Shown piece after piece: positions 6,400 through 59,301 of a stretch of DNA of 64,000 bases. Below the pieces are notes generated by a model. The model saw only the letters and a list, made by a program, of their open reading frames with translations. It did not search any database and was not told the DNA's origin. The stretch lies in the NCBI GenBank assembly GCA_012295275.1, contig CM022672.1, positions 7,006,001-7,070,000 of the forward strand, given 5' to 3'. The position numbers and the translations under genes are program-made. How positions within the stretch are numbered: the stretch's first letter is position 1; the number at the start of each line of letters is the position of its first letter. Origin of the DNA: Chrysomallon squamiferum (lineage: Eukaryota > Animalia > Mollusca).

Positions 6400-6417
6400 A
6401 CTTTCGGTTTTAATTTC
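6400..6417. promoter_or_regulatory. ISRE/IRF-like element upstream of candidate first exon of copy A
   Basis: ACTTTCGGTTTTAATTTC (reverse complement GAAATTAAAACCGAAAGT), conserved at 51278-51295. Followed by splice donor CAG|GTAAAC at 6485/6486. Confidence 0.45.
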
Positions 6418-7699
6418 CGCTCTGCTTTATATCTAGAGAAATATTCATCGTTATACTCATCTAAAAATTATTTTTCAACCAACAGGTAAACAAAAATATT
6501 TTAAATAATTATTACATTATAATTTATAGCAATAAGTGCGAAAACTTTTAAGAGTCAAAACAGTCCAAAGTCTTTTGGCTATACCCTGTATTTATAATCA
6601 CATCCATAATTCAAATATTTCCTATACTTTTTATACTTCGGTTATAATAATATTAATTAAAACACGATGAAATTTTAAGGGTAGGTTTCTTTGTTTGTTT
6701 TTAACAAATCTGAGCATTTATAATTACATGTTGTTTTGTTAATTGAATTAATTAACGATTAATTACCTAAATTAATGTATTTTACATTTATTTAGTCATA
6801 TATTTAATATAAAGTCATTCAGTCAATAAATGTTCTTGAAAAGGTAGAATTTTATAAATGGTTACCTCTAGTTTTATTAATGTGTTATTATTTTTTTATT
6901 TACTTTATTAATGAGCTAATATTTTGTGATGTATTTCTGAGAAAAATAACATATTCAGAGTTATCAGTTAAACACCAATACTTGGTTGGAGTTAGCATAT
7001 AAAATTCTGCTACAGACATTTACGTTTGATTTTATTTAATTTTTTTTATTTATGTAACTGATATATATTTTTTTAAAACAATATTTTTAATATATCAAAT
7101 TCAGGTTATTTATGTTTATTTTGTACAGATTATCTTTACATTGTTATTGTCTCTTTAATAATATCCAAAATAAAACATTATTAAAACAGAAGAACAATAT
7201 AACACATTATTTGAGAACATTTTGTTTTCCTTGATATATGATAATTATCAGAATAGAAAATTATTAAAACAGTATGAACTACTAATAATACAGAATTTAA
7301 GATAACTGTCTTTTCCTTGATATGAAAAGATAGTTTAAAAAATTCTTTGAAACTTATTTACTACATATTGTCTACTTTGTTTTTCAAAAATAGTATTCTG
7401 CTTAATAGCATTGATCATGGAACATGGAAATTATTATAATAATTTAATTTGGGTGTTTTCTAGTTAATTTTCCAGAATAACATCCATTTTACAATTAGAA
7501 AAATAAAAATAACTGTTTTGGATTTTCAAATATAAGTATGTAACCAGAGAAAATGAATTAAGTCACACACAAAATTCATTCACATTTCATATATAGCTTA
7601 TACAGAGAGTCTGCAGGATTTTCTTATATTATATTTTTAATAATTTTCTTCATAAAATGAAGTATGTATATGCTAAACCATCTATATAATATAATATAA

Positions 7700-10340
7700 T
7701 ATAATATAATATATACCACTATTTCTGCAGCTTACAAAAAATTTCAGATACAGGATTATTATTTTTTATAGAAATTGTTCAGTCTGGTCATGGAATCAAC
7801 AGCCACAGATGTCTCAGCCTAATGGTAAAATAATGTTATTTTACACAAAAACATTTTAAAATCTGAAACCAATCCTTAATGTCGTCTTTTTTTTTTTAAC
7901 CTCTTGAGACTTATTTTATTCCAAGCAAAATCATAAAATATTAATTATATTTATCACTATCTCTGTATGTCCATTTAAGTAAGAAACAGAGATATTACAG
8001 AATGTGTTGTTTTCAAGTAATTAATACAGTTGTTTCGGTCAATTATATTAAGAGTACAATTCATTATAATTCCATATTCTAGAATTTGAGAAAACAAATG
8101 TTTAAATATTACTGTAGGTATTCATGGTTAAATAAATCTGTGAACAAATATCTGCATATTGTCTTTGAATTTGACTTAAAAATAAAATGAACTTTTGTTG
8201 CATTCCAGTAGACTATTTTATATAGGATGTTTTAATTATTTCACTTGTTTAAAAAATCCAGTTTATTATTATTGTTGTTGTTGTTGTTGTTATTCAGTAT
8301 CATATCTTTGTTTGTTCAAAATCAGTTAATAATATAAAATTTTCGAAATTTAAACTAGAAAACTTGGTTTGAGTGTTAAAATAAAGAAAAGAATGAAACT
8401 AAAAGACAAAATATACAGTTACACCAAATATAATTATGCACCAGAATGTTAATTTATTATTAATACTTTTTTTTATCCTTGATTGCTTCAATCTTATCTT
8501 AATGAAATTTAAAACATGCAGCATCATCTATATTGATATAAAAAATTTAGTGAACATTTAAGATCAAGGCATCTGTAACACTGAAAATATTGAATTTGAA
8601 AATTTTTGGTTCAACTTCAAGTATAAATTAAATTTTAAAATATTTTTAGTGAACCATTGAAGAACAGATATTAATTTAAGTTCTTCCTTATTGATTTTCT
8701 AAATTAACACACCTACTTCACTGACTGGATTTAGAAAAATAAAGTTGATTTTATGTTGCAGTGTTAATAACAACACAAGGTTATTAATTTTTGTCATGTT
8801 GAACTTTTAGCAGCTCATTAGACTCTGGTAATGGACATCAGCAGACACACATGTCTCAGCCTAAAGGTAAAATAACTGATTATTTTAAATGAAAACATTT
8901 TTAAATTTTAAATCATTCCTTAAAGTTTTCTCGTTTTTTTTTTACTTTCTTAGACTTATTTTATTCTAAGCAAAATTATATAAATAATAATTATATTTAT
9001 CACTATCTCTGAATGTCCAGTTATGTATCAAACATAGATATTGAAAAATGTGTTATTTTTAATACACATTTTGCAAAGTCTGCAATTTATTAGAATTCCA
9101 TATTCTAGATTTTAAAAAACAAAACAAAATGGCAATGTTTAAATATTACTGTAGGTTTTCCAGTAAACAAGAACATGGATGAAAACACAGATCAGTCTCA
9201 ATCAGGACACATCAATGTGAATAAGTCTTCCAGTGTTCACACAAAACAAATTGCTGAAAATGCCAACAGGTTTGTACATTTTGCTTATCCAGTAAAATAG
9301 ATAATGTTTTTTTTATTAAATTGTTACTGGTGTCTGTCAGAATGTGGCAATGTATATTTTATTTGCTGGGTTGGACAAAGTTCATAGCATTTAAACCATT
9401 TCATCACTCAGAAAGATACCATGTTTTTGGAGGATGAAATCATGAAGCTGTCTCAAAGATAGTTGAAGAAAATACCACATGAGTCGTTAAATAAATCTAT
9501 GAAAAATATCTATATATTGTTTTTGAATTTCATTAAATATAAAATGAACTTTTGTTGCATTCCAGTAGACTATTTTATATAGGATGTTTTCATTATTTCA
9601 TTTATTCAAAAAATCCCATTTAAGATCAAGGCATCTGTTAAAAATGTAATAGTAACACTAAAATTATTGAATCTGAAAATAGATGATTAGAGTATAAATA
9701 ATTTTTTTAAATATTTTTAGTGAACCATTGAAGAACAGATATTAATTTATGTTCTTCCTTATTGATTTTCTAAATTAACACACCTACTTCACTGACTGGA
9801 TTTAAAAAAATAAAGTTGATTTTATGTTGCAGTGTTAATAACAACACAAGGTTATTAATTTTTGTCATGTTGAATTTTTAGCAGCTCATTAGACTCTGGT
9901 CATGGACATCAGCAGACACAACTGTCTCAGCCTAAAGGTATAATAACTGATTATTTTAAATGAAAACATTTTTTAAAATTTTAAATCATTCCTTAAAGCC
10001 TTCTCTTTTTTTTACTTTCTTAGACTTATTTTATTCTAAGAAAAACTATAAAAATGATAATTATATTTATCTCTATCTCTGAATGTCCAGTTATCTATCA
10101 AGCACATATATTTAAAAATGTGCTATTTTAAATACAGTTTGTATAGTCAATTAGATTAAGTCTGCTCTTCATAAGAATTCCATATTCAACAATCTGAAAA
10201 AAGTAATATTTTAATATTACTGTGGATATTCCAGTAAACGAGAAAAAGGATAAAAGCACAGATGAGTCACATTCAGGACAGATCAGTATGAATCAGTCTA
10301 CCAGTGTTGACACAAAACAAAATGCTGAAAATACCATTTA
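7700..10340 (+). repeat. ~1.05-kb tandem two-exon module encoding low-complexity S/Q/N/H-rich peptide repeats
   Basis: Exon X (..GHQQTHMSQPK, AG/GT flanked) at 7772-7824, 8811-8866 and 9882-9937. Exon Y (..MDENTDQSQSG..) at 9155-9269, with a damaged copy at ~10225-10340. Introns are also repeated. Confidence 0.7.
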
Positions 10341-13300
10341 GTGCATCTTGTGTATCAAATGTTTCTTTTTAAAAAATTTCTGTTTTCATGATGACATTTC
10401 CTGATGTGTTTTGAAATAGAAGTAATTCAAATTACATGACTTTAATTTATTTTTTCACTAAATCAGTTATCATTGCATTATTCTGACATCTGTTTGTAAA
10501 ACAGGAAATACCTCAACAGTAGCTGAATTGACAGACTCATTGCAAAATCTTTCACTTAAAGAAAATGTAACAGGTATATTTTAGTTTAATGAAAGTATTA
10601 ACATATTTTAATTTTAAATAAATAAAATTATCTTATTTATTTTTTGAAATCTGATGTGTGTTTTAGTGTTTTACTGTGTGATAAAATCACACTGTTACAT
10701 ATATTATGTTGAAATAGTGTAACAAATAGCCTACAATATTGTCTATAATTTCTTTATTAATTACATGATTTACTTAACCTTATTTTTGTTTTTGGTTTAA
10801 CAAATTTATATTTTTTACATAAAGATGAACCATTGACCATTTAGCCACTATTCTTACCTGGCAATGTTCATTTTATTTACAGATATGAAAACAGATGAAG
10901 AAAAGCAAGGACAGAAAGTCTATATTTATTTTCGTTATTATGTGGCTGGTAAAGAGGAAATTTTTTTGATCCGCAAGAATTAAAGCAGTTAAATTGTGAA
11001 CAGTTTCATCTCTTTACATGTTCAGAATATTTTAAAAAAAGTGAAAGTGAAGCTTCAAGAGAGAAGCTCACCAGATTTTATTATGGTCCTTATAAAAATG
11101 TGGATAAACAACTAATGGTAAAGACAGAAGAGTACACATTTGATACTCAAAAAGAAGCTGATGAATGGAAAAATAAAATCACTAATATTCTTACAAAACA
11201 TATGAATACTTATTCTGCTGGGAAGTTTGTCTCACAGCCAGCAGCAGAGTTTGGTTGTTGGACAACCTGTCAAAACCAGACTCTTCAGCTGATGTGTGGA
11301 GACCTGGATTTGGATCAGTGTGATGTTCTAGTGGTGCCTGTGCTAGAAACATCCAGCAGTCAGTTTACACCATCAGTCATAAAGACTGGTCTGTTTTTCT
11401 TTTTTAATTACAGCTGTTTTAATTTTATTCCATCTTTAGACTATGTTTTAGTGAATCTGTATATGTGATAGTCATAGTAAAGTTTTGTTTTAATGCAGTT
11501 TACTCAGTATATCTGTAAATCTGTTGTATCTTAGAACTCAGGGTAAAAGTTGAAATGTAAATGTTAATTGAAAATAAATATATTTACATAAAGACATAAA
11601 TTCAGACTAGGTTTCACAATAATTGTAATAATATTTTAACATGATGTTCAGCTGGAATAAGAGATGTACCAGAATTAGCATAATAACTATATTTTAATTT
11701 TCAGGAAAGTTTTCTGAATCTGTTGATAAAGCTTCAAGAGAAATAAACAAGAAAAAAACAAGTCAAATTGTTTGTAATGATCAAAACAAAAAACCTCATT
11801 TTTTTATTTTCACTCTTCTGCCTCAACAGTGGAATGATGGGAAAGAAAAAGAAAAAGAAAGAATTTCAAACTCCTTTAAAGATCTTTTTGTTTGTCTAAA
11901 GAAGGTTGAAAAAAAGACTTCAGTTAATTTGGTCATCATAGATCTCCAAGACTTAAATTCATTCCCATTCAAGAAAATTGTGAAGCCAATCATAGACTGT
12001 TTTAAAGACAGACTTTCAGAACTGCAAAGTTCATGTCATTTCATTTTGTCAGTACATGATCCTCAAAATGCTATAGAGTTTACCACAGTCTTTGATGACC
12101 TCACTGTGAACAATAAAGAAATACGGAAATTCTTTTTGAGTAAGTACCCAGGTGTCCTACTTGATCATTCAGTTATCTAAATAAAAACAAGAAAATACTG
12201 GAAATGGCTTTAAAGCATATAGCAAAAATTTCCAACATATTGATTATTATTTTGAAATTTTTATCTCCTTGTTGAAATTGATTTCGCACACCATGTTCCA
12301 TAATCTCGATTTCTATTATGTAGTCAAATTTATATTTACTAATCATTTTTGGAAAAGAAGATGATAATAAACACAGATATGAATTTAATTATTTTCAGTC
12401 AAGCAGCCTGATTTGTTAATTAGTAAATAATAGAATCTTGTGTTATTTTTGTAGTGATATGTATTGACAGCATTAGACAAAAATAGTTGTCTTTGCTTTG
12501 TGTTACATTATATTTTAATTGTAGAAAACATGATTTAAAAGTTTGCTTTGTAAACAATTCAGAAAACAATGTAATTTCATCCACATTTTCTCTTTATATT
12601 GAGCCATTTTCCAGAGTACAGGAAAATTCAGTTATAATTTGGAAACACACAGATGTATACTTACAGATGCATCAGTATCATTTTTTAAATTCTGTTAATG
12701 ATACCTGTATTATATCTAAGAAATAAAAAAATAAAACCACAATACTTGTATCTTTCTTTTTCTTCTGCAAGAGTTTAGTTTGTGTAACCTGACAATTTTA
12801 AACTGTTTGTTAACTAAGTGCTTCTTTCTGTTTAGTGTTAGCAATATTCAGAGTGTGTGCATTAAACAGCAATAACATTGTTAAACACATTTATACAAAG
12901 ATTCAAAAGAAAGAAAAAGTCACCTGAAAGTTTCCAATTTATAATGGCAGAAGGAAATGTTGTCCTCTAGAGAAAACACTAACAAGATTGTCCTTCATTT
13001 TTGACACATCCCAAAAACTATTTCTGGTTTCATTGCTGTTTCATTCTAAATTTGTATGAAATTTGTCTCCATTTCAGATGTCAGACATCGCCCATTGTCA
13101 AGAGTGAATGTCATACCTGGAGATATCAGCAAACTCGAGGTATGTCTTACTGAGTTAACTATGTCAGAATATAAAACAAATTATGTCTGTGAGCTTTATT
13201 TCAGTTAATATATGATCTACTTCATGCACTGACTAGGTGGTTTTTTTATGGTTCTTTGATAAACATGAAAACATGATTTATTAAAAATAGATAACACAAT

Positions 13301-16300
13301 AAGATCTCATATGGCCCATTTCGTGTTTTTCATGTGGCTACACATTTGCCATGTTTGCACTTTGTGGTAATAATCAGTCTACAGGGTTATTTCAAGAAGA
13401 CTGGGCAAAGCAAGAAGTGATGGTTCTTTTGTTAATAAATTTTGCAGTATAGTGAAGGTTGCTAGAGACATGTTTGAATATTCCATTTGTACCTATAAAT
13501 GCAGGTGAACATCTCCTTTAATTTGAAAGTATTATACAAGTACCTAAAACTTCCTTGCTCACTACACTAAACTTTTTCTACTGGTCAGTCTCATTATGTG
13601 CTTATAGAGTGTGTACTGTGATCTACTGGTGATGATCCTTCTATTTATATGTATCTGTTTGTTTATTTTACTTGCATTTGATGTTCACAGATATTAATAA
13701 ACCTCTTTGACTGGCACATATGATTCATTCACTCAGTTTACTTTGAATATTTATATACTTAATTTAATGTTTACAAGAATAAAGGTAATATGTAATCAGA
13801 AGGTCAAAAGTGTGTTATTAGAGCATCACAATGTTACTGTTAACCTTCATAAAATGCCTCAAAATGTGTGTTTGTATTAAGTTTGTATTCAAGAAAATCA
13901 AAATTTGAACTGTCCCAATGCTGATCAAGCATTCTTTTATTATTACCTATTTTTAGTTGCTTTTTACCTGAAATTTATTTTTATTTTAATTATTTTAATT
14001 TTTACATTTTAAAGAATGACAACTTTTCTGTAAAATGATATCATTAAAGTTAACAGTTAAGAAGAGAAGAATGTATTGATATTCAAATATGATCAAGACT
14101 AGGTTAGTGCTATTTACAAGAAAGTTTCCAACATCTGTAATTTAATGAATATGTTGAATTTAATCAGTAACTGTTAACCTAGATCTTTTAAAACAATATC
14201 TCATAAACATGATATTATAATTGTTTCAATCAGCCTATTATTGTTGTTGTTCCTTTATATATATTTGTTTAGGTCTTTTATTCTATTTTATTCATTTATT
14301 TAGTTAGTTAGTTACTTAGTTAGTTAGTTAGTTAGGTATTTATTTATTTATTTAAATAGTTAGTTAGGTATTCATTTAGTTATTTATTTCATTATTATTA
14401 TTATTATTATTTTTTTTTTTTTAAAGTGTGATGTAATTGTCAATACTGTTGATCCAAAACTGACCTTACAAAATGTAAATGTTTCAAAATGTATTCTGAA
14501 GGCTGCTGGAACTGGTGTACTTCAAGAATGTAAAAAGTATTATCCAGATGGTATAAAGTTTGGTGCAATTGCAAAGACAGGAGCTGGAAAATTGTCATCT
14601 TGTGATAACATCTACCTTGAGCTGTCTCCTGCTGATGGACATGAAGATGCATTAAAAGCAAGTATTTAACAACCTGAAATTGTTAGTCATGCCTGTACTT
14701 TATTATATATATTTAATAAATTTGTTAATATCTTTTTGTTATCATTAAACAGAGATTTGTATTTGTGTGTTTTAGTTAACATTATACTGATGTTTGTTAT
14801 ATTTGTGTTTTAGTTAACATTACACTGATGTTTGTTATATTTGTGTTTTAGTTAACATTACACTGATGTTTGTTATATTTGTGTTTTAGTTAACATTACA
14901 CTGAGGTTTGTTATATTTGTGTTTTAGTTAACATTACACTGATGTTTGTTATATTTGTGTTTTAGTTTACATTACACTGAGGTTTGTTATCTGTGTGTTT
15001 TAGTTAACATTATACTGATGTTTGTTATCTGTGTGTTTTAGTTTACATTACACTGAGGTTTGTTATCTGTGTGTTTTAGTTAACATTACACTGATGTTTG
15101 TTATATTTGTGTTTTAGTTAACATTACACAGATATTTGTTATCTGTGTGTTTTAGTTAACATTACACTGAGGTTTCTTATCTGTGTGTTTTAGTTAACAT
15201 TACACTGATGTTTGTTATCTGTGTGTTTTAGTTAACATTACACTGATGTTTGTTATCTGTGTTTTAGTTAACATTATAGTGAGATTTGTTATCTGTGTGT
15301 TTTAGTTAACATTATACTGATGTTTGTTATCTGTGTGTTTTAGTTAACATTACACTGATGTTTGTTATCTGTGTGTTTTAGTTAACATTATACTGATGTT
15401 TGTTATCTGTGTGTTTTAGTTAACATTACACTGATGTTTGTTATCTGTGTGTTTTAGTTAACATTACACTGATGTTTGTTATCTGTGTGTTTTAGTTAAC
15501 ATTACACTGATGTTTGTTATCTGTGTGTTTTAGTTAACATTATACTGATGTTTGTTATCTGTGTGTTTTAGTTAACATTATACTGATGTTTGTTATCTGT
15601 GTGTTTTAGTTAACATTATACTGATGTTTGTTATCTGTGTGTTTTAGTTAACATTATACTGATGTTTGTTATCTGTGTGTTTTAGTTAACATTATACTGA
15701 TGTTTGTTATCTGTGTGTTTTAGTTAACATTACACTGATGTTTGTTATCTGTGTGTTTTAGTTAACATTATACTGATGTTTGTTATCTGTGTGTTTTAGT
15801 TAACATTATACTGATGTTTGTTATCTGTGTGTTTTAGTTAACATTACACTGATGTTTGTTATCTGTGTGTTTTAGTTAACATTATACTGATGTTTGTTAT
15901 CTGTGTGTTTTAGTTAACATTATACTGATGTTTGTTATCTGTGTGTTTTAGTTAACATTATACTGATGTTTGTTATCTGTGTGTTTTAGTTAACATTATA
16001 GTGAGATTTGTTATCTGTGTGTTTTAGTTAACATTACACTGAGGTTTGTTATCTGTGTGTTTTAGTTTACATTACACTGATGTTTGTTATCTGTGTGTTT
16101 TAGTTAACATTATAGTGAGATTTGTTATCTGTGTGTGTATTAGTTAACATCACTGTGATGTTTGTTCGTGTATTTTAGAGTTTGTGTCATGTCATGAAAG
16201 CTTGTTTCGATGAAGCATCAACTGATAAGAAGAAAGCAATTGCCTTTCCAGTGTTGGGTACAGGAATTTTAAACTATCGAGTAGATGAAGTAGCAAAATG

Positions 16301-19300
16301 TATGTTTGATTGTGCTGAAAGGTTTTTCCTTGATAATGCACACTCATCAATTGAAAAGGTGCTGTTTGTGGTGCATCCTAAAAATGAAGATTGTATCAAA
16401 GTGAGGAAACTTTTTGTTTATTTTTGATCTCTTTCTGAATATTATCTTTAATTATGTGTAATAGGAGCTTGCTAAAAATTATTGTATAAAAAAAGAAGAG
16501 TTGAAACATAAAACTTTTTTATTTCTTCCTTTTACAGGTTAACAAATCTTTAATAAAATATTATAAAACTGAAAAATTCTGAAAGAAAACTTTGTATAGA
16601 TATTTTAAAGTAAATTGTATGTAATTTCAATCATCATATATTCCAATCTGTGTAACTCTTCATTAATTTCCTAACAGAAATATTGATATATTCACATGAT
16701 TGACCTTGCTAGGCTTTATCAAATGCATTTGTTCTGGTTCCTTGTGTTTGATTTTTTTTGTGGCTTTTTCACATTTTTCAGGTTTGTTCACAAGTCAGTA
16801 AGCTATCAGTGTGACATGTTAATTAAAATGTATTTATATGTATTTATATGTATTTACATGGCCTGCAGAAGGAAGAACCTGCTGCATGATACAGTTACCA
16901 AATGAAATAAATTTGAATACGTTATGTACTTGTTAACAGTGTTAATGAGTGAAATACTCTACAAAGCATGTGCTGAGCAATGAAAATGTATGAATATTTT
17001 TTTGTAGTATCCAGTTATAGCAGTTAGCCATATGCCTGGTAATTCATCATTTTGTAAATGCCATGTACCTGTTGATTTTAACATTTAATAGCTACCATAT
17101 ACCTGTTGATTCATCATCAAACTTGTTTGAAAGTGAGATATGACAGAAAGGCAAGCAATAATAAAAAATAATGAGTTGTTAAGTTGTATGTATAATACAA
17201 AGAGATTACTGCTGTTCTAAAGTTTTAAAACATTGAAATATCAAAACAGTTTTAAAAAAAAGTGTTGAACAAGTGTTACAGATCAGATTAACCTGGAGAA
17301 AAGTTTTCACATTTATCAGTCAGATATGCTATTACAAACAGGTTTTTAAAATAACGAAATAAAAAATACATTTATTAATGGAAGTACAACAATGTATTGC
17401 TATTTATACTTTTTATTTAATAAATACACTGTGATATGGATAATAAATCTTGGTGTCAAAATTATTTAATCCAGATTTAAAATCATGCTTCATAACAAAC
17501 TGTTACTTGAAGAAACAAATAAATACTGTTTAATATAAAAACCATTGATGCAGTTTGCCATTAATATGATATCATTCATTTTAATCATTTTTGATCAGTT
17601 TCTACTGTTTATTTACTTATTTATTTTTTTAAATTGTTATTTTTTATTTATTCAGTTATTTATTTGTTTGTAATCACATTTTAAGCAAGGTAAAGCTTTG
17701 ACTGTTGTTTGCAGGTTTCTATTGCTGAAGAAATAGCTCGGAGCTATGGACTACACAGCAGAATGTGTGAACAATGTAAGTACTGTTAACATTACTTCTC
17801 CTTCAGAAAATTCATTAAGTCATAAAGGTGATTAATATACACAGAGTGTCCCAAAAGTAAACAAAGTACAAACTTAAATAAAATTAGATGTTAAAAATAA
17901 CAAATTTAATTCCATCTTTTATGTCATTTTTATGTTATCTTTTGTACTATTCATTTACTTCTGTCAGTTGTAGTCTTTGGAATGGTTTTTGTTACCTGAT
18001 TGTAGTGTTCTTCGTGATCGAGACTTCTGTTCTAGCGCGCTGCTGGACTCTCCATGGTTTGACTTGAAATGGTACCCTCACTCTTAAAAATGCAGCGAAG
18101 AACTTTAGATTTAAACGAATGTATCTTCGTTATTAAGAATTACTATGCAATGACTAGCTACAAGCATGTTGAAGAAAGATGGGAAGTAAACTTTAGAACA
18201 CCTGTACCAAGTAAATCGACTATGTTCAATCTTGTATCCAAATTTGAAGTCAAATGCTCCTAAAAAAGGTCATCCAAAAACAGTTTGTTCACCTGAAAAC
18301 AAGGATCTGACACCACCTGATTTCTTTCTATGGGGAGTTCTAAAAAACGCAGTTTATGCTAATAAACCTAGGACCATTGATCAACTGAAACAAAGTATTC
18401 AGCATGAATGGAACCAAATTTCAGTGGAAACTTGGCAAAAAGTATGTCGCAGTGTTGTCAAAAGGTGTTGTGATTGTATTGAAGTTGAAGATAGACATTT
18501 TGAACATTTGTAAATACTAAATATACAGATTAAATTTGTTGTTTTTAATATCAATTTTTTTTTAAGTTTGCGTTTCAGTTACTTTTGGGACACCCTGTAT
18601 ATACACACACATGAATCTATATATTATGTGCATGTTTGTGTCATTTGCACTAATTAAAACATCAGAACTTGCCTGTATACTTCTTTCATGAAGGAAATCT
18701 TTCTTCCTCTGTTTTAGGACTGAATGATTGTGAATATCCTGTAAGAGTTTCTCATAGAGACATTTGTAACCTTTATCATAAACATTCTGATTTTAATATA
18801 TCTCTTTTTATATTTATATATATACATATATATATATATATCTTTTTATATCATTAAGCAAGTCACACATCACATTTCTATTTGAATATATGCAGCATCA
18901 GTAAATATTTTCTGTTTTCATTTTCATTGAAAAAATATGCATTATTTCTTTTTTTCTTCTTCTTTTTTTTTTGTAATTTATTATGTTATATATTTATTGT
19001 GTATTAAAAGAGCTATGTGGATCTGTTTGAGTTTTGTGACAAAGCCATATTTCAGATAACATATTGTGTGCTTACAGTGTCTGACAAAAAAGAACACCTG
19101 TATGTTTTTCATGACAATGTCATGCTTCAGATAATATCTGGTGATGACAGTGACTGCACAGCTACTAACAGTGGTGGAATCTGTGTCCTCAGTGAAGGTG
19201 ACATTTTTGAGTTACAGATTTATTATTCTGAGATGATTAGATTTCATTATCTGTATAAAGCATTTGTATTCTCAGTGTATACATGAACGGTTTCTGTTGT

Positions 19301-21054
19301 GAATATTAATTGCTTGTAAGAATTCAGTAGATCACAAAAACAATTTCTTATTTCATTGCAATATTTTCTGATATTTTCACATGCTATGCAGTTTGAGCTA
19401 TTTATCCATTCAATTCACATTAAACGTAGATTAGCATGTTAAGAAAACTATACCTCCACATCACAGCATGTAGGATATAAAAATAAACAAATCATTGTTT
19501 TGAGTATTTTATTGTTTGGCATTATAATAAATTTGCATATTTAGGTGACAGTGGATGGGAACAAAGTGCAGATTTGTTACCTGACAATAAAGAAGGTATG
19601 TACAGGAACTGTTCTGTTTGGAAAATGAGTAACTCATATTAAATTATGTGTCCTCATGTTTAAATGTAAACTGTACCCATTACACTCAAAATTGTTTGTT
19701 TTTTTATACATTATCATTTTCACAATGGTATTATGATTAAGGACTAAATGAAATATGTACTGGTTATTATGTATAATTATGTATATTATTACTTTTTTAT
19801 TATTATTTTACTTTTTCCAAGATAATTATCAAACTAGGTAATAAATACAAAGCTACTGTAACAAGTGACTTATCGTGCAGTGATTTTAAAGAAATAATTT
19901 TAAAGTAAAAATAAAACTGCAGTTATTCTAAACTAAATTGTTTCTTCTTTTTCAAACACTGGCAGAATTCATGACTTCCTTGCAGTCAGAAACACTTTTA
20001 AGGACACATCCATGTCCAGTACCCCTGGGTGTTGTTATACACTGCTGGGCAAAGAATAAGGATAAGTTGGAGGATGTAATTAAAAAGGGACTGAAAGACA
20101 TCGCAAAGGAAAAACTCCTTGCTGCTCAGATACTACTGTTACCCAGTAAATTTTTTGTTTTCAGTTCTTCTCCACTAACTCATCTCAACCTTTCATCTAG
20201 ATAGTCTTAAAAGTGAATTCTATCAAAAGTTTTTAAATGTTTATTTATTAATTAATTTAATTATTACAATTAATTTAAATGTTAGACTTAGTGGCAGTTT
20301 ATTTTATTTAAATGTTTAGTTTTTGCTATAAGAGATTTTACATACAATAGCATTTTAACAGTTCTTTCTACAGTGGCATGCCTTAGTTTGAAATGGTAAA
20401 TAAAACATTTCTGAAAATTAGAATGAGATTAAGAACAATACATTATTTTTATTTATTTGTTGTTGGACATAATCTGAGCATTAAACTAATCAATATTTCT
20501 ATTTATTTGTTGATTTTTTTTGTGTTTACATGTTGAAAGTAACTGGATTTACTTTTGTTTCTTTTTTTTTTCTTTGTTTTTAAAAATTTAATTATAATTA
20601 CTATTATTTATTTATTTATTTCTTCGTACTTTTTTTATTAAGTGTTTAAAGAAAATGAAATTTATGCAGTGGAAATGATCAACAGTATCATCAATGCAAT
20701 GACTAACAAGAAGAACAAGGCAGATACAGGGCTTCATCTTGTGTCACTCATCATCAGTGACCAGAACGTCTTTGATACAGTTACTGACAGTGTTAACACA
20801 CAGCTTCAACAGAAAGATGTCAAACTGAATAAAGCATCTGTCACATCATTCTCTACTTCATCAGGTGTGTGTTTATATATATATATTTAAATTCAGTTCA
20901 TATCTCTTATATATTGAAGATTTAAAAAAATAAAAAATGAAGCTTTGGAATATTTGTGTCTGTCTACATCAGACACACTATGAAATGTCCAGCATTGTTT
21001 CTTTGCTCTGTTAATCCTTTAGAATCTGATCTACACTGTTAATTATTTATTTGT

Positions 21055-21113
<59 letters not shown>

Positions 21114-24100
21114 TTCTTTGTTGGAATAATCAATAATTAATTACAGCAGAATAGTTACTCATGCTTGTAATTTGTTCATTCCTGTTAAATAAGAAAATCT
21201 GTAATTGTTCACTGTGAAATAAATAATTTGAAAATAATTCTTATCTCTTTCATCACTCCTCTTTTGTTTTTCTGTTTATGAACAACATCTGTTTTTTTTT
21301 TTCATTTTTATTTCATGTGAATTTCTGATTGTATTGATATTTGTTTATCAGATTCATATAAATGGTTTGAATCCGTATGGAACCAGAGTGACAGAGAAGA
21401 TGTAGTTTCAGTTTTTGGAGAAACAGAAGAAAACATCACTCCAGCTTTGGAAAAGATGAAAACCATTATTTGTCCAGTTTGTATTTACTTTTTTCAGTTT
21501 TTGTCTGCTTAGAAAGTTAGGATAATTTATGAGTACATATTTCTGGTTTGTTAGGAATTGAAACTATTACTTTTTATCATCAGATTAATGCAGTAAAATT
21601 TCTAAATGTAATTCTGTTTGATTGTTTGATCAAATTAGTTTACAATATTAAAGCCAGCATTAACCACTTGGATCACCCAAAGATGAACTTAAATAACACT
21701 GTTACAATTTTGTTTCATGCTTTATTACTATGAAAAGAACATAATGTAGCTTTCAGAATATAACTCCCACTTACAGACTGTACATTACATAAAAAATAAA
21801 ATACTTAAAAAATAGAAAATGTTAATCATCACAGGTGTTTACCAATTCTTTTCAATAACCATTGTCCAGTAACACAGAAATTCTTTATTTATAAATTTTT
21901 AACATCTAGAATAACAACGCTGATAAAAGTATAGGTTTTCTTTCTATAAAAAGTAATTACTTTAAACATTTGAAATGAATTTTCATTCAAAATGTTTTAT
22001 AAGTATGTCCTGTGCAGATTGAATTCTTTCAGTAACCTGGGTTTTTATTCACAAACACATCAGTAGAAAGTTTTAAAGGAAAAGCCACTGACCGTCTGAA
22101 TAGAAGTTAGAACAATGTGTTTTACTTCTTCTCCTAGGAAAGCAAAAATACGGATAGTGAAAATGATGTTGGTAGTTTTGAAATAATTGACAACACAGAT
22201 GAAGGTACTATGAGCTTATCATCAGTGAATCCAGAAAAAGTTTTAATACCACAAAACGGTAAGTAAACATTCCAGCACATAACATTTCTACTAGTAATGT
22301 CACGTTTGTGAAAACAGTGTTTACTAATCTTAACCACCAAAAATATTAACTCACATTAAATTCCGTAACTTGTTTTTTTTATCTCTGCATCAACAAAAAC
22401 TAATTTTTCAATTTTATATTATATTTGTTTTGTTGTTATTTTCACAGTGTTGGGTAATATCCCAGTCAGATAATCAGTTTGATGTAAATAACCTCTCATA
22501 ATTTCTTCATTTTTATTTATTTTATTTTTTTATATCATTATTGATCTCCTTTTCACTATTCATCATCTCACTGTATGAACACACATTTGACGTTTGGGAA
22601 ATATAAAATTTTTACTGTTATAAACATTTTAAACAAAATTTCTTGAGTGGATAAGTAACCTCCCAGAAAAACTCTAGCAAGTAAAAATGTGGTCAAAGGC
22701 AAGTCCTTAAATTAATAGTAACATTAGAACTTAAAATCTGTTACATTATTATTACTAATGATAAGTTCTAATCAACTGATTAATCAGAATGTGACCTTTT
22801 CATGTTGTAATGTGCTAATCACAAACACATAAACATGCATTACTTGTAGACAGTAATGGAAAAACTCTGTGAAGACATTTTCATAATGAAATAAATAGTG
22901 CACTGTTTCTTCTAATTAATGCAGTGTGAAAAGTATACAGAAAGTCAAGATAAAGTATAATGTGGTCTTTGAGAATATCTTAGTATGTTTCAGTTACATA
23001 AAACAATTGATCTGATTTTATAAACACATTTTAGTAAATTTAATGTACTTAATTTTTAAATTTTATTTCATTTTATTTTATTGCATTTTTAATGTGGAAT
23101 TTAACTCAAGGCTAATGCTCTCTGTTCTTTTTTCAGCAACTGTAACATGTGTTAAGCCTTTTCTCACATGAAGCTAAATTTTATAGTTACTTGTTCTTTT
23201 ACTAATTTCCTTTTTCCTTGTGTTCAGAACAGATAAACTTTTATAATGTAAATCTGAGTAACATGGATTCCAGTTTGGTTTTGAAAGAATTAACATGAGT
23301 ATATGTATGTTAAAATTGTCTAAGTTGTGGCCATCACAAAACTTAGAATGAACATTATTTGAAGTAAATATCCTCTAAATATAAAGAAATATATATAATA
23401 CAATTCAAAGTTACATGTACTTCAAGCTGAACCTTTACAGATCTTTTTAAATACATGTTTGAATAGGATACAATTGGATAGAAAATGGATATGTTAATGT
23501 TACATGAATAGACCTGAAGTGAAAAAAGAAAGACAAACTTGCTGTGAAGTAGATGTGTAAATGGTTTTTAATTTGTGTTTTGTCTGTTACAGTTCAGCAT
23601 GAAACAACATCTGAGTTACAAACGACTAAACAGTCCACAGGTGATCAGGAAAAGTAAGTAATAGTTTTATAATATTGGACACAATAAATGAGATAGTTAT
23701 AAATTTCTGTTGAATAGCAATCAGAAATGAGAGACAAATATAAATATGCCAGTTTGCACGATTGATTTAATTATGATATGTGTGTGTGTGTGTTTTGGAT
23801 TTTAACATTCTCAGTTAAAATATGTATTTTTCATTAAATTAAAGGTTTCTAGAACTATGTGGGTCACATGTTATTTGGTTAATAGTCATTTAGATAACCT
23901 TTTTTCTGGGTTTTTTTGTAAAACTTAGGTCTGCCTGTGAACCTGATGTGGAGTCCAGTGATCCTACCTGTATTTTGTTAGAAGCAGTCCAGTCACTTGA
24001 TGGAAATATGGATTCTTTGAGGGAAAAATTAGCTAAAAATAAACATACACCCGCTGCAATTTTGTATCCACACCCTATCAACTCGGAAGAGAAAGCAATA

Positions 24101-27100
24101 ATTGTTTTTGAAAAGTCAGAAGGTAAGAGATATCATACTATACTTTCATAATTGAATTACATTTTTATTGATGTGTTAAGAATATTCCTATCTTCATTCA
24201 TGTCAGACATGTTTGTTTTTATTTTAATGTTACTGTTATTTTTTAAATATTGTATTTCTTCAACACTGAAAAATAAAAACAATTTTAGAAAATCACCTAA
24301 AACTGTTAGGTCCTTTAACAAAATTACTATTATGGTTAAACTAAAAAATATTTTCTAAATATTTTATTTTATTTTTAAAAATTATCACAATGATTACAGT
24401 ATCAATAAATTTTGTCCAGCAAATTCTGTTTGGGTAGTGGAATGTTTTACTCACATGCAAACACACACTTGTACATACATTCACACAAAAACACATTATT
24501 TTGGGCCTGCTATTCCTACTAATAGTGTTTTTATTTACTGGAAAAATATCATCATTGGGTGTGTTTTATTTTCCCAGATGTTAAACAAATCTTGGACAAA
24601 AAATTACTTTCTGAACATGAGCCACAAAAACTGCAGCCAGTAAGAATATTACAATCCTCACATTTTCATTACAAAACATACCTCTCTTATGGACCTATTA
24701 GGTTAAATAAAATTTTAAATAAAATAGAATCAAATATCAAATACAAACATTTTCATTAAAGCTGGGTAATAAATTTTCAACATGAAATGTTACAAACTGT
24801 TCTTTAACTAGTGAGTTATATAATCATAATAAATTAATTTATCAATGTACATTGTACATGTTGTATTCTTCTTAGCATAAATATATATAATTTCTGTTTT
24901 TTAATTTCTGTAGCTATTTCATATTGTAAATATAAGAAGTGAAAAGTTATTCTAATAATTTATTTACTTTATTCTGTATATATGTCATATTCTGTGAATC
25001 CTCTTTTTAGCATCTCATAAACAGCAGCTCTGAAATCGACAGAAAAACATTTGAAAAGATATCTCAAGATGAAAAACTAAAAACAGAATTCAGAAAGAAA
25101 ACGGGTCTTGTTTTTCCCCCAAAAAATAAGATTACAGGTAACTTTTTTCAGCTTGTGGCTGCAGACAAATTCTTCCATCATATTTGTCCACCTAAAAATA
25201 TGAAAACAAAGCTTGAAATTGATTTGATTCTATCTGATGCCATCAAAAAGTTGAATATTACAGAAGAAGAACAGGTAGAATACATTCCACTTGACAATGA
25301 CAAAATTTCATTAATATTTGAATATGACACAGATGAAACTAAAATGATCCAAAACAGAATTGAGGCACTGATCAGAGAAAACATCAGCACAGAGAATGCA
25401 TCATTGAAACAAGAAGAGATCACATCAGTTGTAAACAGTTTACAAGATTCTACACAAGATGTTTACTGTGCTTATATTCCACATCAAAACATGGTCGCAG
25501 TTTTCAGTGAAGATAAAAACAAACTGGAAGACGTGAAAGCGAAACTTCAGGTGAAATTGGGACTAATAAAACAAAGAGGTCGATCTAATAGAAAATGTAC
25601 TGCTTCTAAAACTGTCAGCTCCGAAGAGAAGAATCAAGCAACATCATCCATTCAGAATGTGTCAGCATCCACTTCAACAACATTCAGTGTTCACCCACTT
25701 GTCAAAGGCAAACATCTTGACGTGATGGTGTACAAAGGTAATATCACTCAGCTGTCAGTTGAGGCTATTGTAAATGCTGCTAATGGTCATTTATCTCATG
25801 GAGCTGGAGTAGCAAGAGCAATAGCTGATGCAGCAGGAGAAGACTTGGTTAAAGAAGGAAACAAGTTTGTTAGAGAGCAAGGACAAATTGCTGTGACTGG
25901 TGTTGCTGTCACCACAGCTGGACGACTTCCCTATCACTGTGTACTTCATGCTGTAGGTCCTGCTTACAGTGATTACAAGGACAAGTCAGAATGTTTGGAA
26001 GATCTCTGTAAAACAATACTGAGATGTCTGTGTGAGGCCAGCAAAAAAAAAGTGAAATCTGTAGCAATTCCATCCATCAGTTCAGGTATTTAATTATTAC
26101 AACTATTTTACTTTGTTAAATAAAATAATGTGAACAGATATTAATTTGAAATAAGTTGTGTTTTTGATCTGATTTTCAGGTTACAACTTCAGAAATATTT
26201 CTTTCTTCACTGGTTGTAAAATTCAACCAGCTTAAATATTTCTTGGTTCAGTTGTCTACACATTTGCATACAGCTTGCCTAGCGAATCTGCCTGAAAAGT
26301 ACTTTTATTAGTATTTATTTTTAGAACTGTTTTTAAAAATTCTAATAATCATAGAAATATCCAAATACATATTTGTATTGGTATTAATATAAATGTTTTG
26401 TTATGTGAATTTATTTTATTTCAGGAATCTTTGGTGTTCCAAAGAAATCTTGTGCTGAGATGTATGTTAGAGCTGTCATTTCGTTTAACTCAGTAGTTTC
26501 TGGAGGAAGTCTGAAAGAAGTTCATTTTGTTGACATTAGTGACAACATGCTGCAGTTAATCACCAATGAGTTTGTGACAGAATGGAATAAAAAACTTGAT
26601 GAAAAAATTCTGGAAAGAGATAAAAGATTTATTGACGAGCATCTGCTTGCAAGTAAGTCTGTCTCAGCCAAACATGTGAATGCTGCAGCAGCAGGAGATA
26701 AAAATCACTCAACAACATCAACAGATAAGTGTGGCATTCAAGTCATTGTTTACCAAAAAGATATTTCTAAAGTTCATTGTGATGCAGTTGTCTGCTGGAA
26801 AGATCCCAGTTTTTCAGAAGAAGATCACACAATAGCAAGAGCAATATATCAACAAGCTGATCACGATTACAAAAAGAGGTTAAGAGAAATTAAACAGAAG
26901 ATCCCTTACCAGGAGCGTAATAAGACAGTTTTCACAGCTTATGCAGAGAAACATTTTCTGGTCATACATGGAGTGATTGAAAAGTTAAACCCAAGTATAA
27001 CTGATTTCCATGACGTTTTGACAAAAATTATTGTAAAAGCAGATAAAGACAGGATGCAATCAATTGCTATTCCAGTTTTTCAATGTTTCAAATCAGGTAC

Positions 27101-30094
27101 GTTAATTGTTTTTTTTTTACTTAAAAATATATATTACATTATGTTATTACCAACACTGGAATTCTTAAAAAGTTAGATATGCAAAGTAACATCTTTTATA
27201 TTATTTATTATGATAAAGCAAAAAGTAGTTCACAGTAAAAGAAATATGTTTTGTCATTTAGATGTTAAGTTTGACATAACAGTAGATGTGTTTTTAATTT
27301 TCAATATGAAATTCCTATTGTAATTATCTTACAGGTTATCTAACATTTGTGTACTTTAAAATCAGTTTAATTTAGTGATATTTTATTTTCGTTTTTGCAG
27401 ACAGTGTCGAGAAATTTGTAGAAGTATTTTGCAAGACTGTGAAAGATTTCACAACAAACAAAGAACACTTTGCTTTGAAGGAGATACATGTTGTTGACAC
27501 TGATGACAAAGTTGTAAGTTTTGTTAGCACACTTGTTGAAAACAGTGGAGTAAATGTCTGGGCTTCACGCAGTGAAACTGATGTCTACAAGAACGAAAGT
27601 TCTCCAGCACAACATGCACCATCCCAGCATTCAGATCATGTTAATCATGTTTGTCCAATTTGTCTGGATAAAATGTCAAATCCTCTGAAACTGAAAAATG
27701 TGGCCATAGTTTTTGTAAAGACTGTATTGATACACAAATGAAATACAAACCTGTTTGTCCAATCTGTGGAATGTTGTATGGTGTTCTCACTGGTAACATG
27801 CCTACAGGAAAAAAAATGCATGTTTATCATTATAAGAGTGGGGACTTCCTGGATACAAAGAATATGGATCTTATCATATCACTTACTGGTTTCCAGATGG
27901 ATTCCAAACTGTAAGTACTGTAGAATGTTTGTACAGCTGTTTCAGTAAGATGTTTTTCTAAATATAGATACAAACAGAGATGTCCATTTGCTTATATATA
28001 CTAGGTGTGACCTGCAATTAAGGATTTCTGGAACAAGTTTAATGTTTTCTTAAAATGTAAACTAAAAGTAATCAATGAAGGGATATTTAACAGATACAAA
28101 TTAAAACATTTATAAAGCTCATTTTTTCTTATCTGGTGAAGATTTTCAAGCAACACTTTGTCCATGGCTATACTCAACAACTGGTTTAAAAAAAAAAAAA
28201 AATTAATATGGGCACATTACTCACACTGTAAAAATTAATTGTTTTTAATAATACAAATAGTAGATTTAACAACATCATTCTTCTGAAAAACTAAAACCAT
28301 CTCTATTAAGTCTCATAAGTAAACCCAACTTTCTGAAATATACCAAAATAATTTTTTTTTTTGGGTTTTTTTTTTTTTTTTTTCTCATTATCAAATTGTT
28401 ATTAACTTATTGTGTTGACCTTTTAGACATGAAAATTACAGTACACTAGGGAAAATAATTTACATAAATGTAGAGAGATCCAAGATTTTTATATATATTA
28501 TTTTTATTAACACATATGGTTAATTCTTTTTAATAATAAAATTAATTTTATAATTATTGAATTTTTTATTTAATAATTTGGGAGCCCCTGAGGCAGAGGA
28601 TGTGGAACAGTTGCCTTTTTGCCCATTTTGCCCCCTGATAAATCTGTCCTGGTTTTCAATTTAAATTTAATCAGCACTGTTGGAATATTACTTATTAAAT
28701 GCTGCACTTTAGGTTGAGAATTTACATTTGTAACAAAACATTTAGAAATAAACTTGTTACTGACATGCTGAATATTCCTGCACTGGATAAATGAAATTTT
28801 TGTATGTTTAATTACTACTATTAATAATAATAATAAACATTCTATTGAAAATCTTGATGGTGTTCTACAATTTTTTCCCACAATTAATTTATATAAATTG
28901 TTTTTCAGAAAGAACATCCTGATGAAGGACAGTGGTATTATGGTATTACCCGCTATGCTTATTTACCAGATACACTAGAAAATCGCAAAATACTTGCCAT
29001 GTTACGTGTTGCTTGGGAACGAAGACTGACATTTACTATTGGAAGATCAGTCACAACTGGATATGATGGAGTCATAACATGGAATGACATTCATCATAAA
29101 ACAAACATGTAGTGGAGGCCCAGACAAGTAGGTTCTCATATAATCCCTTAAATAGGTAGACCATCTTAGTAGTAAAGTTGTCAGGTTTGTAATAATACAT
29201 CACCAGAAGCTTACTAAGTAAACCTTCCAGTGTGAATGTGTTTCTTTACCTCATTAAAAATGTTACTTTTAATATTTAGGCAAAATATTACTGAATTGAA
29301 GTTGATATAATTAATTTGTTTTAGGATACTTTAATTAGATAAAGAATGAATTGAAGTTGACATGATAAACTTGTTTTAGAAATTATTTTCATTGTATTAA
29401 TAGTGTCAGATATAATAATTCTATGAAAGAGTTTGCAGTATTTAAAATTTTAAACTTAGATTTAGTTGTAAAGGTTTTGTTGTGAAGATTAATCAGTATC
29501 TTATGTAGTGTTTATTTACATGCTACTGTGTGTTATTGTTTTGTTTTGCATGTTTAGACAATGTGTTGTACAACACAATTTACATAGGCTAAAGTGTTTG
29601 CCAGAAACACTGTCCTGTCATGACTGACCACTTCTCTTATCCATGCTTCTTATTTCTTCACTCTGAAACTTTGTATAAGAATATCAATCTATCCTGTACA
29701 TTCACAGTATATTCGTCTTACAAGTGAAATGATTTTGTTTTTGTAATAGGAGGCTATTATAATCTACAGAGGTTATATAATTATGTGTACATGTGTATTT
29801 TATTATTTATACACTTGTTGCTTCTTTAGAGTTAAGAATTTTTAAGCCAACATTAATAAAGTTTATATTGTTTTGAGATTATCAGTGAACTGTTTTGTGA
29901 CATAAATTTTTTTCATACACTATTTCAATTCTGTATTTTAATATAATATTAAAGTATTGTTTCTCTTTCTTTATAGATTTGGTTATCCAGATCCTGGCTA
30001 TCTAGATCGTGTGAAAGAAGAACTGTCAGCCAAGGGAATCACTGAAGAAAGTATTAAAGATCCAAAGTACAAGCAGCTCACTGGAACCTTTTAG
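7809..30094 (+). CDS. Multi-macrodomain RING-Deltex C-terminal (DTX3L-like) E3 ubiquitin ligase, copy A, ~1800 aa, multi-exon, with apparent frameshifts
   Basis: Phase-consistent exons: 10505-10573, 10883-11388, 11705-12139, 13078-13139, 14427-14657, 16179-16400, 17715-17775, 19078-19197, 19545-19595, 19966-20145, 20643-20864, 21352-21476, 22138-22258, 23593-23653, 23929-24122, 24578-24639, 25011-26085, 26425-27096, 27401-27910, 28909-29127, 29977-30094 (TAG). Start codon uncertain. Frameshifts at ~10961-10967, ~27694-27698, ~27835-27843 and ~29110. Confidence 0.75.
13078..16400 (+). CDS. PARP14/PARP9-type macrodomain of copy A (3 exons)
   Basis: GDISKLE|CDVIVNTVD..VSKCILKAAG..TGAGKL..|..AIAFPVLGTGILNY..IEKVLFVV. 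Exons 13078-13139, 14427-14657 (GC donor GCAAGT) and 16179-16400. Confidence 0.85.
14750..16165 (+). repeat. Intronic minisatellite, 36-38-bp unit, ~37 copies
   Basis: Unit TTTGTTATCTGTGTGTTTTAGTTAACATTAYACTGATG in head-to-tail array. Confidence 0.95.
17842..18597 (+). mobile_element. Internally deleted Tc1/mariner-superfamily transposon (rosa/DD41D- or Tc3-like)
   Basis: TIRs CAGAGTGTCCCAAAAGTAA / TTACTTTTGGGACACCCTG followed by TA. ORF remnants include an N-terminal HTH-like piece and DLTPPDFFLWGVLKNAVYANKPRTIDQLK..HFEHL. The DDD core is deleted. Confidence 0.9.
25011..27096 (+). CDS. KH-like region, MacroD-type macrodomain and second degenerate macrodomain of copy A
   Basis: VYKGNITQLSVEAIVNAANGHLSHGAGVARAI..TTAGRLP..VLHAVGP..SVAIPSISSG|IFGVP. 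Then VYQKDISKVHCDAVV..QSIAIPVF. Exons 25011-26085 and 26425-27096. Confidence 0.9.
27401..30094 (+). CDS. C3HC4 RING and Deltex C-terminal domain exons of copy A
   Basis: CPICLD..CGHSFCKDCI..CPICG (needs 1-nt correction), [55 protein letters not shown]. Confidence 0.9.
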
Positions 30095-34345: not shown

Positions 34346-34361
34346 AAAACGAAAGTGAAAC
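34346..34361. promoter_or_regulatory. ISRE-like motif in inverted promoter fragment (also 36217-36232, 38093-38108)
   Basis: AAAACGAAAGTGAAAC within the B segment, which is a reverse-complement homologue of 41985-42183. Confidence 0.55.
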
Positions 34362-50604: not shown

Positions 50605-50616
50605 GAAAGTGAAACT
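50605..50616 (+). promoter_or_regulatory. Canonical ISRE/IRF motif
   Basis: GAAAGTGAAACT. GAS-like TTCTAGGAA (50659-50667), TTCTTAGAA (50705-50713) and TTCAAGGAA (51264-51272) follow. Confidence 0.55.

Positions 50617-53301: not shown

Positions 53302-53336
<35 letters not shown>

Positions 53337-54821: not shown

Positions 54822-59301
<4,480 letters not shown>

What the first reader, a model, noticed from the sequence alone, without database searches (positions are those of the whole stretch)
7809..30094. Single-chain multi-macrodomain + RING-DTC protein resembling a natural PARP9-DTX3L fusion
Seen: exon phases chain from up to five macro-like folds through KH/RRM-like segments to a C3HC4 RING and DTC. 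One macrodomain has the NAAN/GAG/GIFG motifs of MacroD-type ADP-ribose hydrolases. Established: in vertebrates the macrodomains (PARP9) and RING-DTC (DTX3L) sit in separate proteins that heterodimerise, and DTX RING-DTC modules can ubiquitylate ADP-ribose. Inference: one polypeptide here could read or erase ADP-ribose and ubiquitylate it, acting as an invertebrate antiviral effector. Similar architectures may already exist among unannotated mollusc proteins.
Basis: partly seen in the sequence, partly recalled or inferred. Interest (0 to 1): 0.8.

Follow-up and report, generated by a model that had tools for sequence, protein, structure and literature searches.

The report
Five-macrodomain Deltex ligase, frameshifted copy
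This likely snail gene is predicted to join up to five ADP-ribose-binding-type domains, one likely an ADP-ribose remover, to a Deltex ubiquitin ligase in one chain, a design already on record in invertebrates rather than a PARP9 fusion, and the copy as assembled carries four frameshifts.

Summary

- **Gene model:** 24 exons (7809-30094) chain in phase into 1831 aa, but only with X at four frameshifts, one inside the RING.
- **Macrodomains:** B, D and E are clear by profile. A and C are degenerate and rest on predicted folds of relatives. Only D has hydrolase motifs.
- **Ligase:** RING ligands and the DTC catalytic His and Glu are present.
- **One gene:** abalone records tile across the proposed 23 kb split, and the only promoter-like CpG-rich stretch lies upstream of exon 1.
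- **Already known:** Macro+RING+DTC occurs in 10 of 26 hits, from snails to amphioxus. A 2026 preprint notes a macrodomain in early DTX3L, lost when PARP9 arose. PARP9 is reported only in jawed vertebrates.
- **Apparently new:** an extra PARP14-like three-macro cassette in front.

No reads were laid, so splicing and the breaks (assembly error or recent decay) are untested.

The parts
5750..6485 (+). CpG-rich, promoter-like stretch and likely non-coding first exon (donor at 6485); IRF-element-like 11-mer at 6400-6410
   Evidence: CpG 4.0-4.8 per 100 nt against 0.33 mean in the gene body; donor and motif also in copy 2; the motif consensus is recalled
7772..10573 (+). Short exons 1-4 (ATG 7809) among duplicated micro-exons; low-complexity N-terminus, exact path uncertain
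10883..12139 (+). Exons 5-6: degenerate macro A (about aa 215-385); frameshift in a T run at 10959-10965
   Evidence: 37% identical to Gigantopelta P0029, E 1e-29; Atlas model of P0029 TM 0.74-0.78 to macrodomains; break
13078..16400 (+). Exons 7-9: macro B (aa 406-562), outside the macro-1 and macro-3 groups of the tree, no hydrolase motifs
   Evidence: Pfam, own profile 105 bits, quick tree
17715..21476 (+). Exons 10-15: degenerate macro C (about aa 600-765) and a following segment, possibly KH-like
   Evidence: aligned to H. rubra P0027 and P0005; Atlas model of P0027 420-660 TM 0.50-0.59 to macrodomain and macro-PARP rows
22138..24639 (+). Exons 16-19: linker and a segment shared with abalone proteins, fold unresolved
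   Evidence: score 58 against P0027, 0 of 300 shuffles; 43 against P0005, 23 of 300
25011..25600 (+). Exon 20, first half: predicted KH-like domains
   Evidence: model of the abalone relative, best Z 7.9, KH rows frequent but not decisive
25722..26550 (+). Macro D (aa 1205-1367), the only one with hydrolase-type motifs NAAN, HGAGV, GIFG; it has GNI in place of the usual GDI
   Evidence: Pfam E 3e-28; best PDB matches PARP14 and PARP9 macro 1; motifs
26742..27514 (+). Macro E (aa 1432-1586), degenerate, no hydrolase motifs
   Evidence: 74 bits; confident macro-type fold in the model of relative P0002
27652..27770 (+). C3HC4 RING, all eight ligands present, interrupted by a frameshift in an A run at 27694-27698
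27800..30094 (+). DTC domain over exons 22-24; His and Glu matching DTX3L H707 and E733, Phe at Y719; frameshifts near 27838 and 29107; stop at 30092-30094
51000..59300 (+). Tandem paralogue (copy 2): lacks the stretch matching about 10.4-25.3 kb; macro D, macro E, RING and DTC exons in frame, but NAAN reads NDAN and the catalytic His reads Arg

Best explanation
This is likely one gene of the macrodomain-bearing DTX3L kind, extended at its front by a likely PARP14-type cassette of three macrodomains, and an intact product would likely bind ADP-ribosylated targets and either remove the ADP-ribose or attach ubiquitin to it. Shown: the exon chain, three clear macrodomains, the RING and DTC with their catalytic residues, and the same domain order in relatives. 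Inferred: (1) a separate PARP14-like enzyme writes the ADP-ribose; (2) macro B and E, which lack hydrolase motifs, and the KH-like domains bring the protein to modified proteins or RNA, while A and C are probably structural relics; (3) macro D hydrolyses Asp/Glu-linked ADP-ribose as PARP14 and PARP9 macro 1 do; (4) the RING holds E2-ubiquitin and the DTC His/Glu pair transfers ubiquitin to ADP-ribose or a nucleic-acid end, as in DTX2 and DTX3L; (5) the domains are flexibly linked; (6) expression is immune-induced. In this reading the four frameshifts are mostly assembly errors or belong to one haplotype.
For: Open phase chain over 22 exons with one break. Tiling by relatives: Gigantopelta P0029 covers aa 200-401, H. 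rubra P0027 covers aa 327-689 and also matches exon 18, and H. rubra P0005 aligns from aa 731 to 1819. P0027 and P0005 are 76% identical where they overlap. Batillaria P0012 holds a macro-A-like stretch (score 79, 0 of 300 shuffles) in the same record as macro, RING and DTC. No CpG-rich stretch between 21.5 and 25 kb; the one blip at 18 kb lies inside an element with inverted ends. Macro D matches PARP14 and PARP9 macro 1 best and meets the motif criteria of PMC10221186. The DTC matches DTX3L best, 89.8 against 73.5 bits (run with the copy 2 exon; copy 1's last exon). DTX3L H707, Y719, E733 and DTX2 H582, E608 are from PMC11460948. The RING shows 1 replacement against 2 silent changes between the copies, where about 6 replacements are expected if both were neutral, P 0.016, so neither copy is long dead. 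Three of four breaks lie in or beside single-base runs, and near-identical repeats in this window differ more by short indels than by substitutions (6 against 4, 6 against 1). A model of P0002 has confident domains but pTM 0.41, which fits free linkers. An Aplysia DTX3L-like transcript is co-expressed with antiviral gene orthologues (PMC8195618).
Against: No single record with all five macrodomains and RING-DTC was found: 0 of 8 hits in the search for longer relatives of P0027 carry a DTC. No reads were laid on any joint or break. About 4 kb of other coding sequence in the window (copy 2 and the 5' exons of the PARP14-like fragment) has no frameshift, where about 3 would be expected at copy 1's rate, P 0.05, and three of the four breaks crowd into about 420 coding bases. 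Overall pN/pS between the copies is 1.0, which fits relaxed selection as well as diversification. Copy 1 has Asn at a position that is Gly in 9 of 9 relatives in the DTC. Macro D has GNI rather than GDI, which may weaken adenine binding (recalled). The IRF-like motif is weak: 6 matches against 1.4 expected, two of them the same duplicated site and three inside coding exons.
Confidence: 0.52

Rival explanations
1. Same gene and ancestry, but this copy is a recently broken pseudogene or null allele in a fast birth-and-death cluster. The break near 10960 would end the protein after about 120 aa, and the RING break would remove the ligase.
For: Four frameshifts, one of them a gain of a base not clearly in a run. 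No frameshift in about 4 kb of other coding DNA, P 0.05. The neighbours look damaged: copy 2 has a 15 kb deletion and changes at invariant residues, and the PARP14-like fragment has an in-frame stop near 46040. pN/pS is 1.0.
Against: No premature stop by substitution in 5494 coding bases. The RING is almost unchanged between the copies. No significant excess of derived changes on the copy 1 side after the RING break: 8 against 8 with the nearest outgroup, 12 against 8 with all eleven, P 0.42. All splice sites are kept.
Confidence: 0.32
2. Two transcription units: an upstream PARP14-like fragment with three macrodomains, and a downstream two-macro DTX3L-like gene.
For: No full five-macro record found. 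P0029 and P0027 are annotated as separate proteins without RING-DTC. Copy 2 exists without the upstream part.
Against: P0005 spans the junction in one record. Phases match across exons 14-20 and no upstream exon ends in a stop. There is no CpG-rich start between 21.5 and 25 kb. Copy 2 lost the part by a deletion ending inside exon 20, at a short shared sequence.
Confidence: 0.12
3. A true fusion of a PARP9 orthologue with DTX3L.
For: Macro D resembles PARP9 macro 1, E 5e-21.
Against: PARP14 macro 1 scores higher. PARP9 was found only in jawed vertebrates (PMC10221186). No PARP catalytic domain in the window. In a quick tree the first macrodomains of all ten DTC-bearing relatives and macro D fall in one 17-row group (SH-aLRT 81, modest) apart from PARP14 macro 1, which points to an old joint history (no PARP9 row was in the tree).
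Confidence: 0.02

Closest known systems
Macrodomain-bearing DTX3L orthologues of non-tetrapod animals (bioRxiv 10.64898/2026.04.23.720386, results section on DTX3L origin; records such as Gigantopelta XP_041360710.1, Haliotis rubra XP_046558137.1, Branchiostoma XP_078587612.1)
   Same: Macrodomain(s) directly before a C3HC4 RING and DTC in one chain; 57% identity over 686 columns to the Gigantopelta protein.
   Different: Three further macro folds in front; no RRM shown at the N-terminus; four frameshifts as assembled. The preprint's figure and supplements could not be seen, so its species and domain counts are unknown to me.
Human DTX3L (PDB 3PG6) and the DTX3L-PARP9 heterodimer
   Same: DTC closest to DTX3L, His and Glu kept; KH-like domains predicted; a hydrolase-type macro 1 and a RING-DTC brought together.
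   Different: One chain instead of two; no PARP catalytic domain; Phe at the Y719 position; PARP9 itself is reported absent outside jawed vertebrates.
PARP14 (three macrodomains between KH domains, then WWE and ART)
   Same: The upstream A-B-C cassette has the same count, with the middle one intact and nearest to second macrodomains of PARP14-like proteins.
   Different: First and third macros degenerate; no WWE or ART found after them; followed by a DTX3L-like body.

Membership tests
Deltex E3 ligases (DTX3/DTX3L class) | C3HC4 RING directly followed by a DTC domain at the C-terminus | tested here: met
   Pfam zf-C3HC4 and DTC above cut-off; read across frameshifts with X; in frame in copy 2
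Deltex E3 ligases (DTX3/DTX3L class) | Catalytic His and Glu in the DTC (DTX3L H707, E733) | tested here: met
   IHHKT and EEL align with 3PG6; numbering assumes the chain ends at residue 740 (recalled); copy 2 has Arg for His
Deltex E3 ligases (DTX3/DTX3L class) | DTC closer to DTX3L than to DTX1 and DTX2, and no WWE domains | tested here: met
   89.8 against 73.5 and 73.2 bits (copy 2 exon); no WWE hit by Pfam or tblastn; DTX3 itself was not compared
DTX3L | N-terminal RRM and KH-like domains | tested here: inconclusive
   no Pfam hit; KH-like fold in a relative's model, Z up to 7.9; RRM region poorly modelled
DTX3L | Intact, expressed reading frame and E3 activity on ADP-ribose | not testable with these tools
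   four frameshifts as assembled; no reads laid; activity needs an assay
PARP9 | C-terminal ART (PARP) domain after two macrodomains | tested here: not met
   no PARP hit in 31 ORFs by Pfam or by tblastn with PARP-bearing proteins
PARP14 | RRMs, three macrodomains, WWE and ART in one chain | tested here: not met
   only a three-macro-like cassette; no WWE or ART
Hydrolase-type macrodomain (PARP14/PARP9 macro 1) | Asn/Ser and Gly flanking loop 1; hydrophobic plus aromatic residue in loop 2 | tested here: met
   macro D only: NAAN, HGAGV, GIFG; criteria from PMC10221186; not met by A, B or E; C could not be aligned

The most novel reading that the evidence does not exclude
Gastropods keep the ancestral one-chain form of the DTX3L-PARP9 machine and have extended it by grafting PARP14's three-macrodomain cassette onto it. 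This gives a five-macro reader-eraser-ligase whose DTC surface diversifies between tandem copies (23 replacement against 1 silent change in its first half, while the RING is conserved), as expected of an antiviral effector in an arms race.
Probability: 0.35. Interest if true: 0.55.

Novelty: new variant of a known kind. Interest (0 to 1): 0.33.

Why it matters
A single chain holding a hydrolase-type macrodomain and a Deltex RING-DTC is a natural test bed for how erasing and ubiquitylating ADP-ribose are balanced, a question now studied with the two-chain human DTX3L-PARP9 complex. It also supports the view that this coupling predates PARP9. The value is limited: the basic design is in databases for many invertebrates and is mentioned in a 2026 preprint, an intact orthologue such as the Gigantopelta or abalone protein would be a better reagent, and this copy may be dead. 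I found no biochemical test of such a protein in the nine paper searches that ran, which cover an open-access library only.

Tried and rejected
No whole genome is held, so other copies and the PARP9/PARP14 complement of this species were not searched.

RNA: four RNA runs of one study hold 22-27% of sampled words of 24500-30500, and a fifth run of unknown kind holds 30%. Exons make up 48% of those words and exonic words shared with copy 2 only 10%, which hints at copy-1-like transcripts. No reads were laid, so I do not count this as evidence; joints and breaks stay untested.

Searches for relatives: exon 5 against 1.84 billion representatives gave 2 hits, one a repetitive artefact (P0028, dropped) and one real (P0029). 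The P0005 N-terminal region gave only itself and P0027. Longer relatives of P0027 gave 8 macro-rich or PARP14-like proteins, none with a DTC; the tool calls such absence weak.

Folds: the model of the linker, RRM and KH region had mean pLDDT 51 with 8 rows, and only residues 255-375 were usable. The first half of exon 5 had no significant match to P0029 (247 of 300 shuffles) and the late part of macro C none to P0027 (79 of 300).

Tree: the careful search did not finish; the quick tree (84 rows, 162 columns; P0028, P0030 and P0031 left out; macros A and C not alignable) gives modest support only.

Decay test: no significant asymmetry between the copies. The excess of replacements in the first half of the DTC (Fisher P 0.03) is post hoc, one of six regions, and not corrected.

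The 18 kb CpG blip was rejected as a promoter. PMC8166818 and PMC11354881 hold nothing on this architecture. PMC8218723 and PMC4602278 did not give an IRF consensus.

Full report
What is there. The window is AT-rich animal DNA (GC about 0.23-0.37 over the gene). The closest proteins come from gastropods, so the organism is probably a snail; this is an inference. I rebuilt the gene by hand: 24 exons from 7809 to 30094, every internal acceptor AG and every donor GT except one GC donor at 14657. Read straight, the chain stops at 10981. With one frame change in a run of seven T near 10960 it stays open for 1662 codons. Three more changes (about 27695 in the RING, 27838 and 29107 in the DTC) are needed to reach the stop at 30092, giving 1831 aa with X at four places. 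The first 80 residues run through duplicated micro-exons and are uncertain.

Domains. Pfam finds Macro, C3HC4 RING and DTC. A profile built from about 60 macrodomains of stored hits finds B (aa 406-562, 105 bits), D (1205-1367, 199 bits) and E (1432-1586, 74 bits), a marginal A (4.8 bits) and no C. The Atlas model of the Gigantopelta relative of A matches macrodomains at TM 0.74-0.78. The model of the abalone relative of C matches macrodomain and macro-PARP rows at TM 0.50-0.59, below the bar for a name. So there are three clear and two degenerate macro folds. Only D has the loop-1 Asn and Gly and loop-2 Ile-Phe that PMC10221186 links to hydrolase activity, and its best solved matches are PARP14 and PARP9 macro 1. 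It has GNI where GDI is usual (recalled as adenine-binding). The DTC is closest to DTX3L (run with the copy 2 exon) and keeps the His and Glu that match H707 and E733, with Phe at Y719 (residue roles from PMC11460948). KH-like folds are predicted for the region before D in an abalone relative (best Z 7.9, not decisive). An RRM was not shown.

One gene or two. The end of macro E and the RING lie in one exon, so Macro plus RING-DTC is not in doubt. For the upstream cassette the evidence is indirect. H. rubra P0005 aligns from aa 731 to 1819, across the 23 kb point. H. rubra P0027 covers the end of A, B and part of C (E 5e-35) and also matches exon 18 (0 of 300 shuffles). Batillaria P0012 has an A-like stretch with macro, RING and DTC in one record. 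The only CpG-rich stretch near the gene start is at 5.75-6.5 kb, there is none at 21.5-25 kb, and the blip at 18 kb sits in an element with inverted ends. Against this, no record with the whole five-macro chain was found, and no reads were laid.

Alive or dead. For assembly error: three of four breaks sit in or beside single-base runs; near-identical repeats in this window differ by 6 indels against 4 and 1 substitutions in two of three comparisons (the third, 3 against 10, includes a unit end); there is no stop by substitution; and the RING is conserved between the two copies (1 replacement, 2 silent). For real decay: about 4 kb of other coding DNA has no frameshift (P 0.05); three breaks crowd at the 3' end; overall pN/pS is 1.0; and both neighbours are damaged. 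Polarised changes show no significant asymmetry. I put an intact gene at roughly 60 to 40.

How it likely works. By analogy with PARP14 macro 1 (hydrolase; macros 2 and 3 readers; PMC10499325) and with DTX3L (ubiquitin onto ADP-ribose or single-stranded nucleic acid; PMC11460948), an intact product would bind ADP-ribosylated targets through B and E, erase the mark with D, or cap it with ubiquitin through the RING-DTC. It has no writer domain, so a PARP14-like enzyme must act in trans. A model of the two-macro relative P0002 has confident domains (mean pLDDT 73) and pTM 0.41, with best solved matches PARP14 macros, Deltex RING-DTC and PARP9 macro 1; that fits free linkers rather than a fixed interface. 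An immune role rests on analogy, on a weak IRF-like motif beside the first exon of both copies (consensus recalled), on a DTX3L-like transcript in an antiviral co-expression module of Aplysia (PMC8195618), and on a post hoc excess of replacements in the first half of the DTC (23 against 1), a region the preprint finds fast-evolving in mammals.

Compared with what is known. Macro, RING and DTC occur together in 10 of 26 hits: Gigantopelta, two abalones, Batillaria (2), an oyster, Lingula (2), amphioxus and one unnamed assembly. In a quick tree their first macrodomains and D fall in one 17-row group with modest support (81), beside PARP14 macro 1. E falls in the same wider group (93), so it may be a copy of D. 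B lies outside, nearest to second macrodomains of PARP14-like proteins. [quoted passage not shown] So this is the older one-chain state, not a fusion of PARP9. The added three-macro cassette is the part I did not find described; searches are.

What I saw of each paper. bioRxiv 10.64898/2026.04.23.720386: abstract, passages, the results section on origin, and part 1 of 2 of the discussion; its figure 1d and supplements, which list the architectures, were not visible and may already show a multi-macro form. PMC10221186: passages and results section 3.1. PMC10499325, PMC11460948, PMC12687431, PMC8195618, PMC8166818, PMC11354881, PMC8218723 and PMC4602278: passages only.

Verdict. Observation partly confirmed, interpretation partly supported. 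A new variant of a known kind, possibly a broken copy. Interest 0.33.

Noticed in passing
window 51000-59300: Tandem paralogue, 92-96% identical in exons, that lost about 15 kb by a deletion ending inside exon 20; its remaining exons are in frame but NAAN reads NDAN, a RING Pro reads Ala and the DTC catalytic His reads Arg.
   Followed up: yes
window 42900-47030: PARP14-like N-terminal half (RRM and KH exons, 43-52% to Gigantopelta P0003) with an in-frame stop near 46040, a 99-bp unit repeated 4.7 times and no macro or ART exons before the gap at 47.7 kb; looks like a pseudogene between the two DTX3L-like copies.
   Followed up: partly
window 7772-10345, 48348-49356, 52745-54271: Repeated pairs of 53-56 nt and about 106 nt micro-exons encoding low-complexity Ser/Gln/His peptides; a third set at 48-49.4 kb, with short scraps of other parts of the gene at 49.6-49.9 kb, suggests a third decayed copy.
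   Followed up: partly
window 6400-6410 and 51278-51288: IRF-element-like 11-mer about 80 bases before the first donor in both copies; another match at 50606-50616.
   Followed up: partly
window 32545-39869: Four near-identical 1.87 kb tandem units (about 99%), differing largely by one-base indels in runs; related DNA at 62-64 kb.
   Followed up: partly
window 17846-18593: Element with 15-base inverted ends and an ORF piece at 18190-18510 that resembles a Tc1/mariner transposase end (recalled; no Pfam hit).
   Followed up: partly
window 14733-16166: 38-bp minisatellite, about 38 copies, inside the intron that splits macro B, which also has the GC donor.
   Followed up: no
window 4393-4695, minus strand: ORF piece with a Ulp1-type protease hit (PF02902, E 2e-5), probably from a transposon.
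   Followed up: no
window 40118-41486, minus strand: Broken ORF pieces that look like a hAT-type transposase (recalled; no Pfam hit), partly repeated at 63.4-64 kb.
   Followed up: no
proteins P0001, P0003, P0007, P0018: Macro-D-like domains sit in other shuffled settings: after WWE (P0001), after PARP14-like RRM/KH without ART (P0003), after RING and B-box (P0007), and inside a retrotransposon polyprotein between RNase H and integrase (P0018, scallop). Some may be gene-model joins.
   Followed up: no
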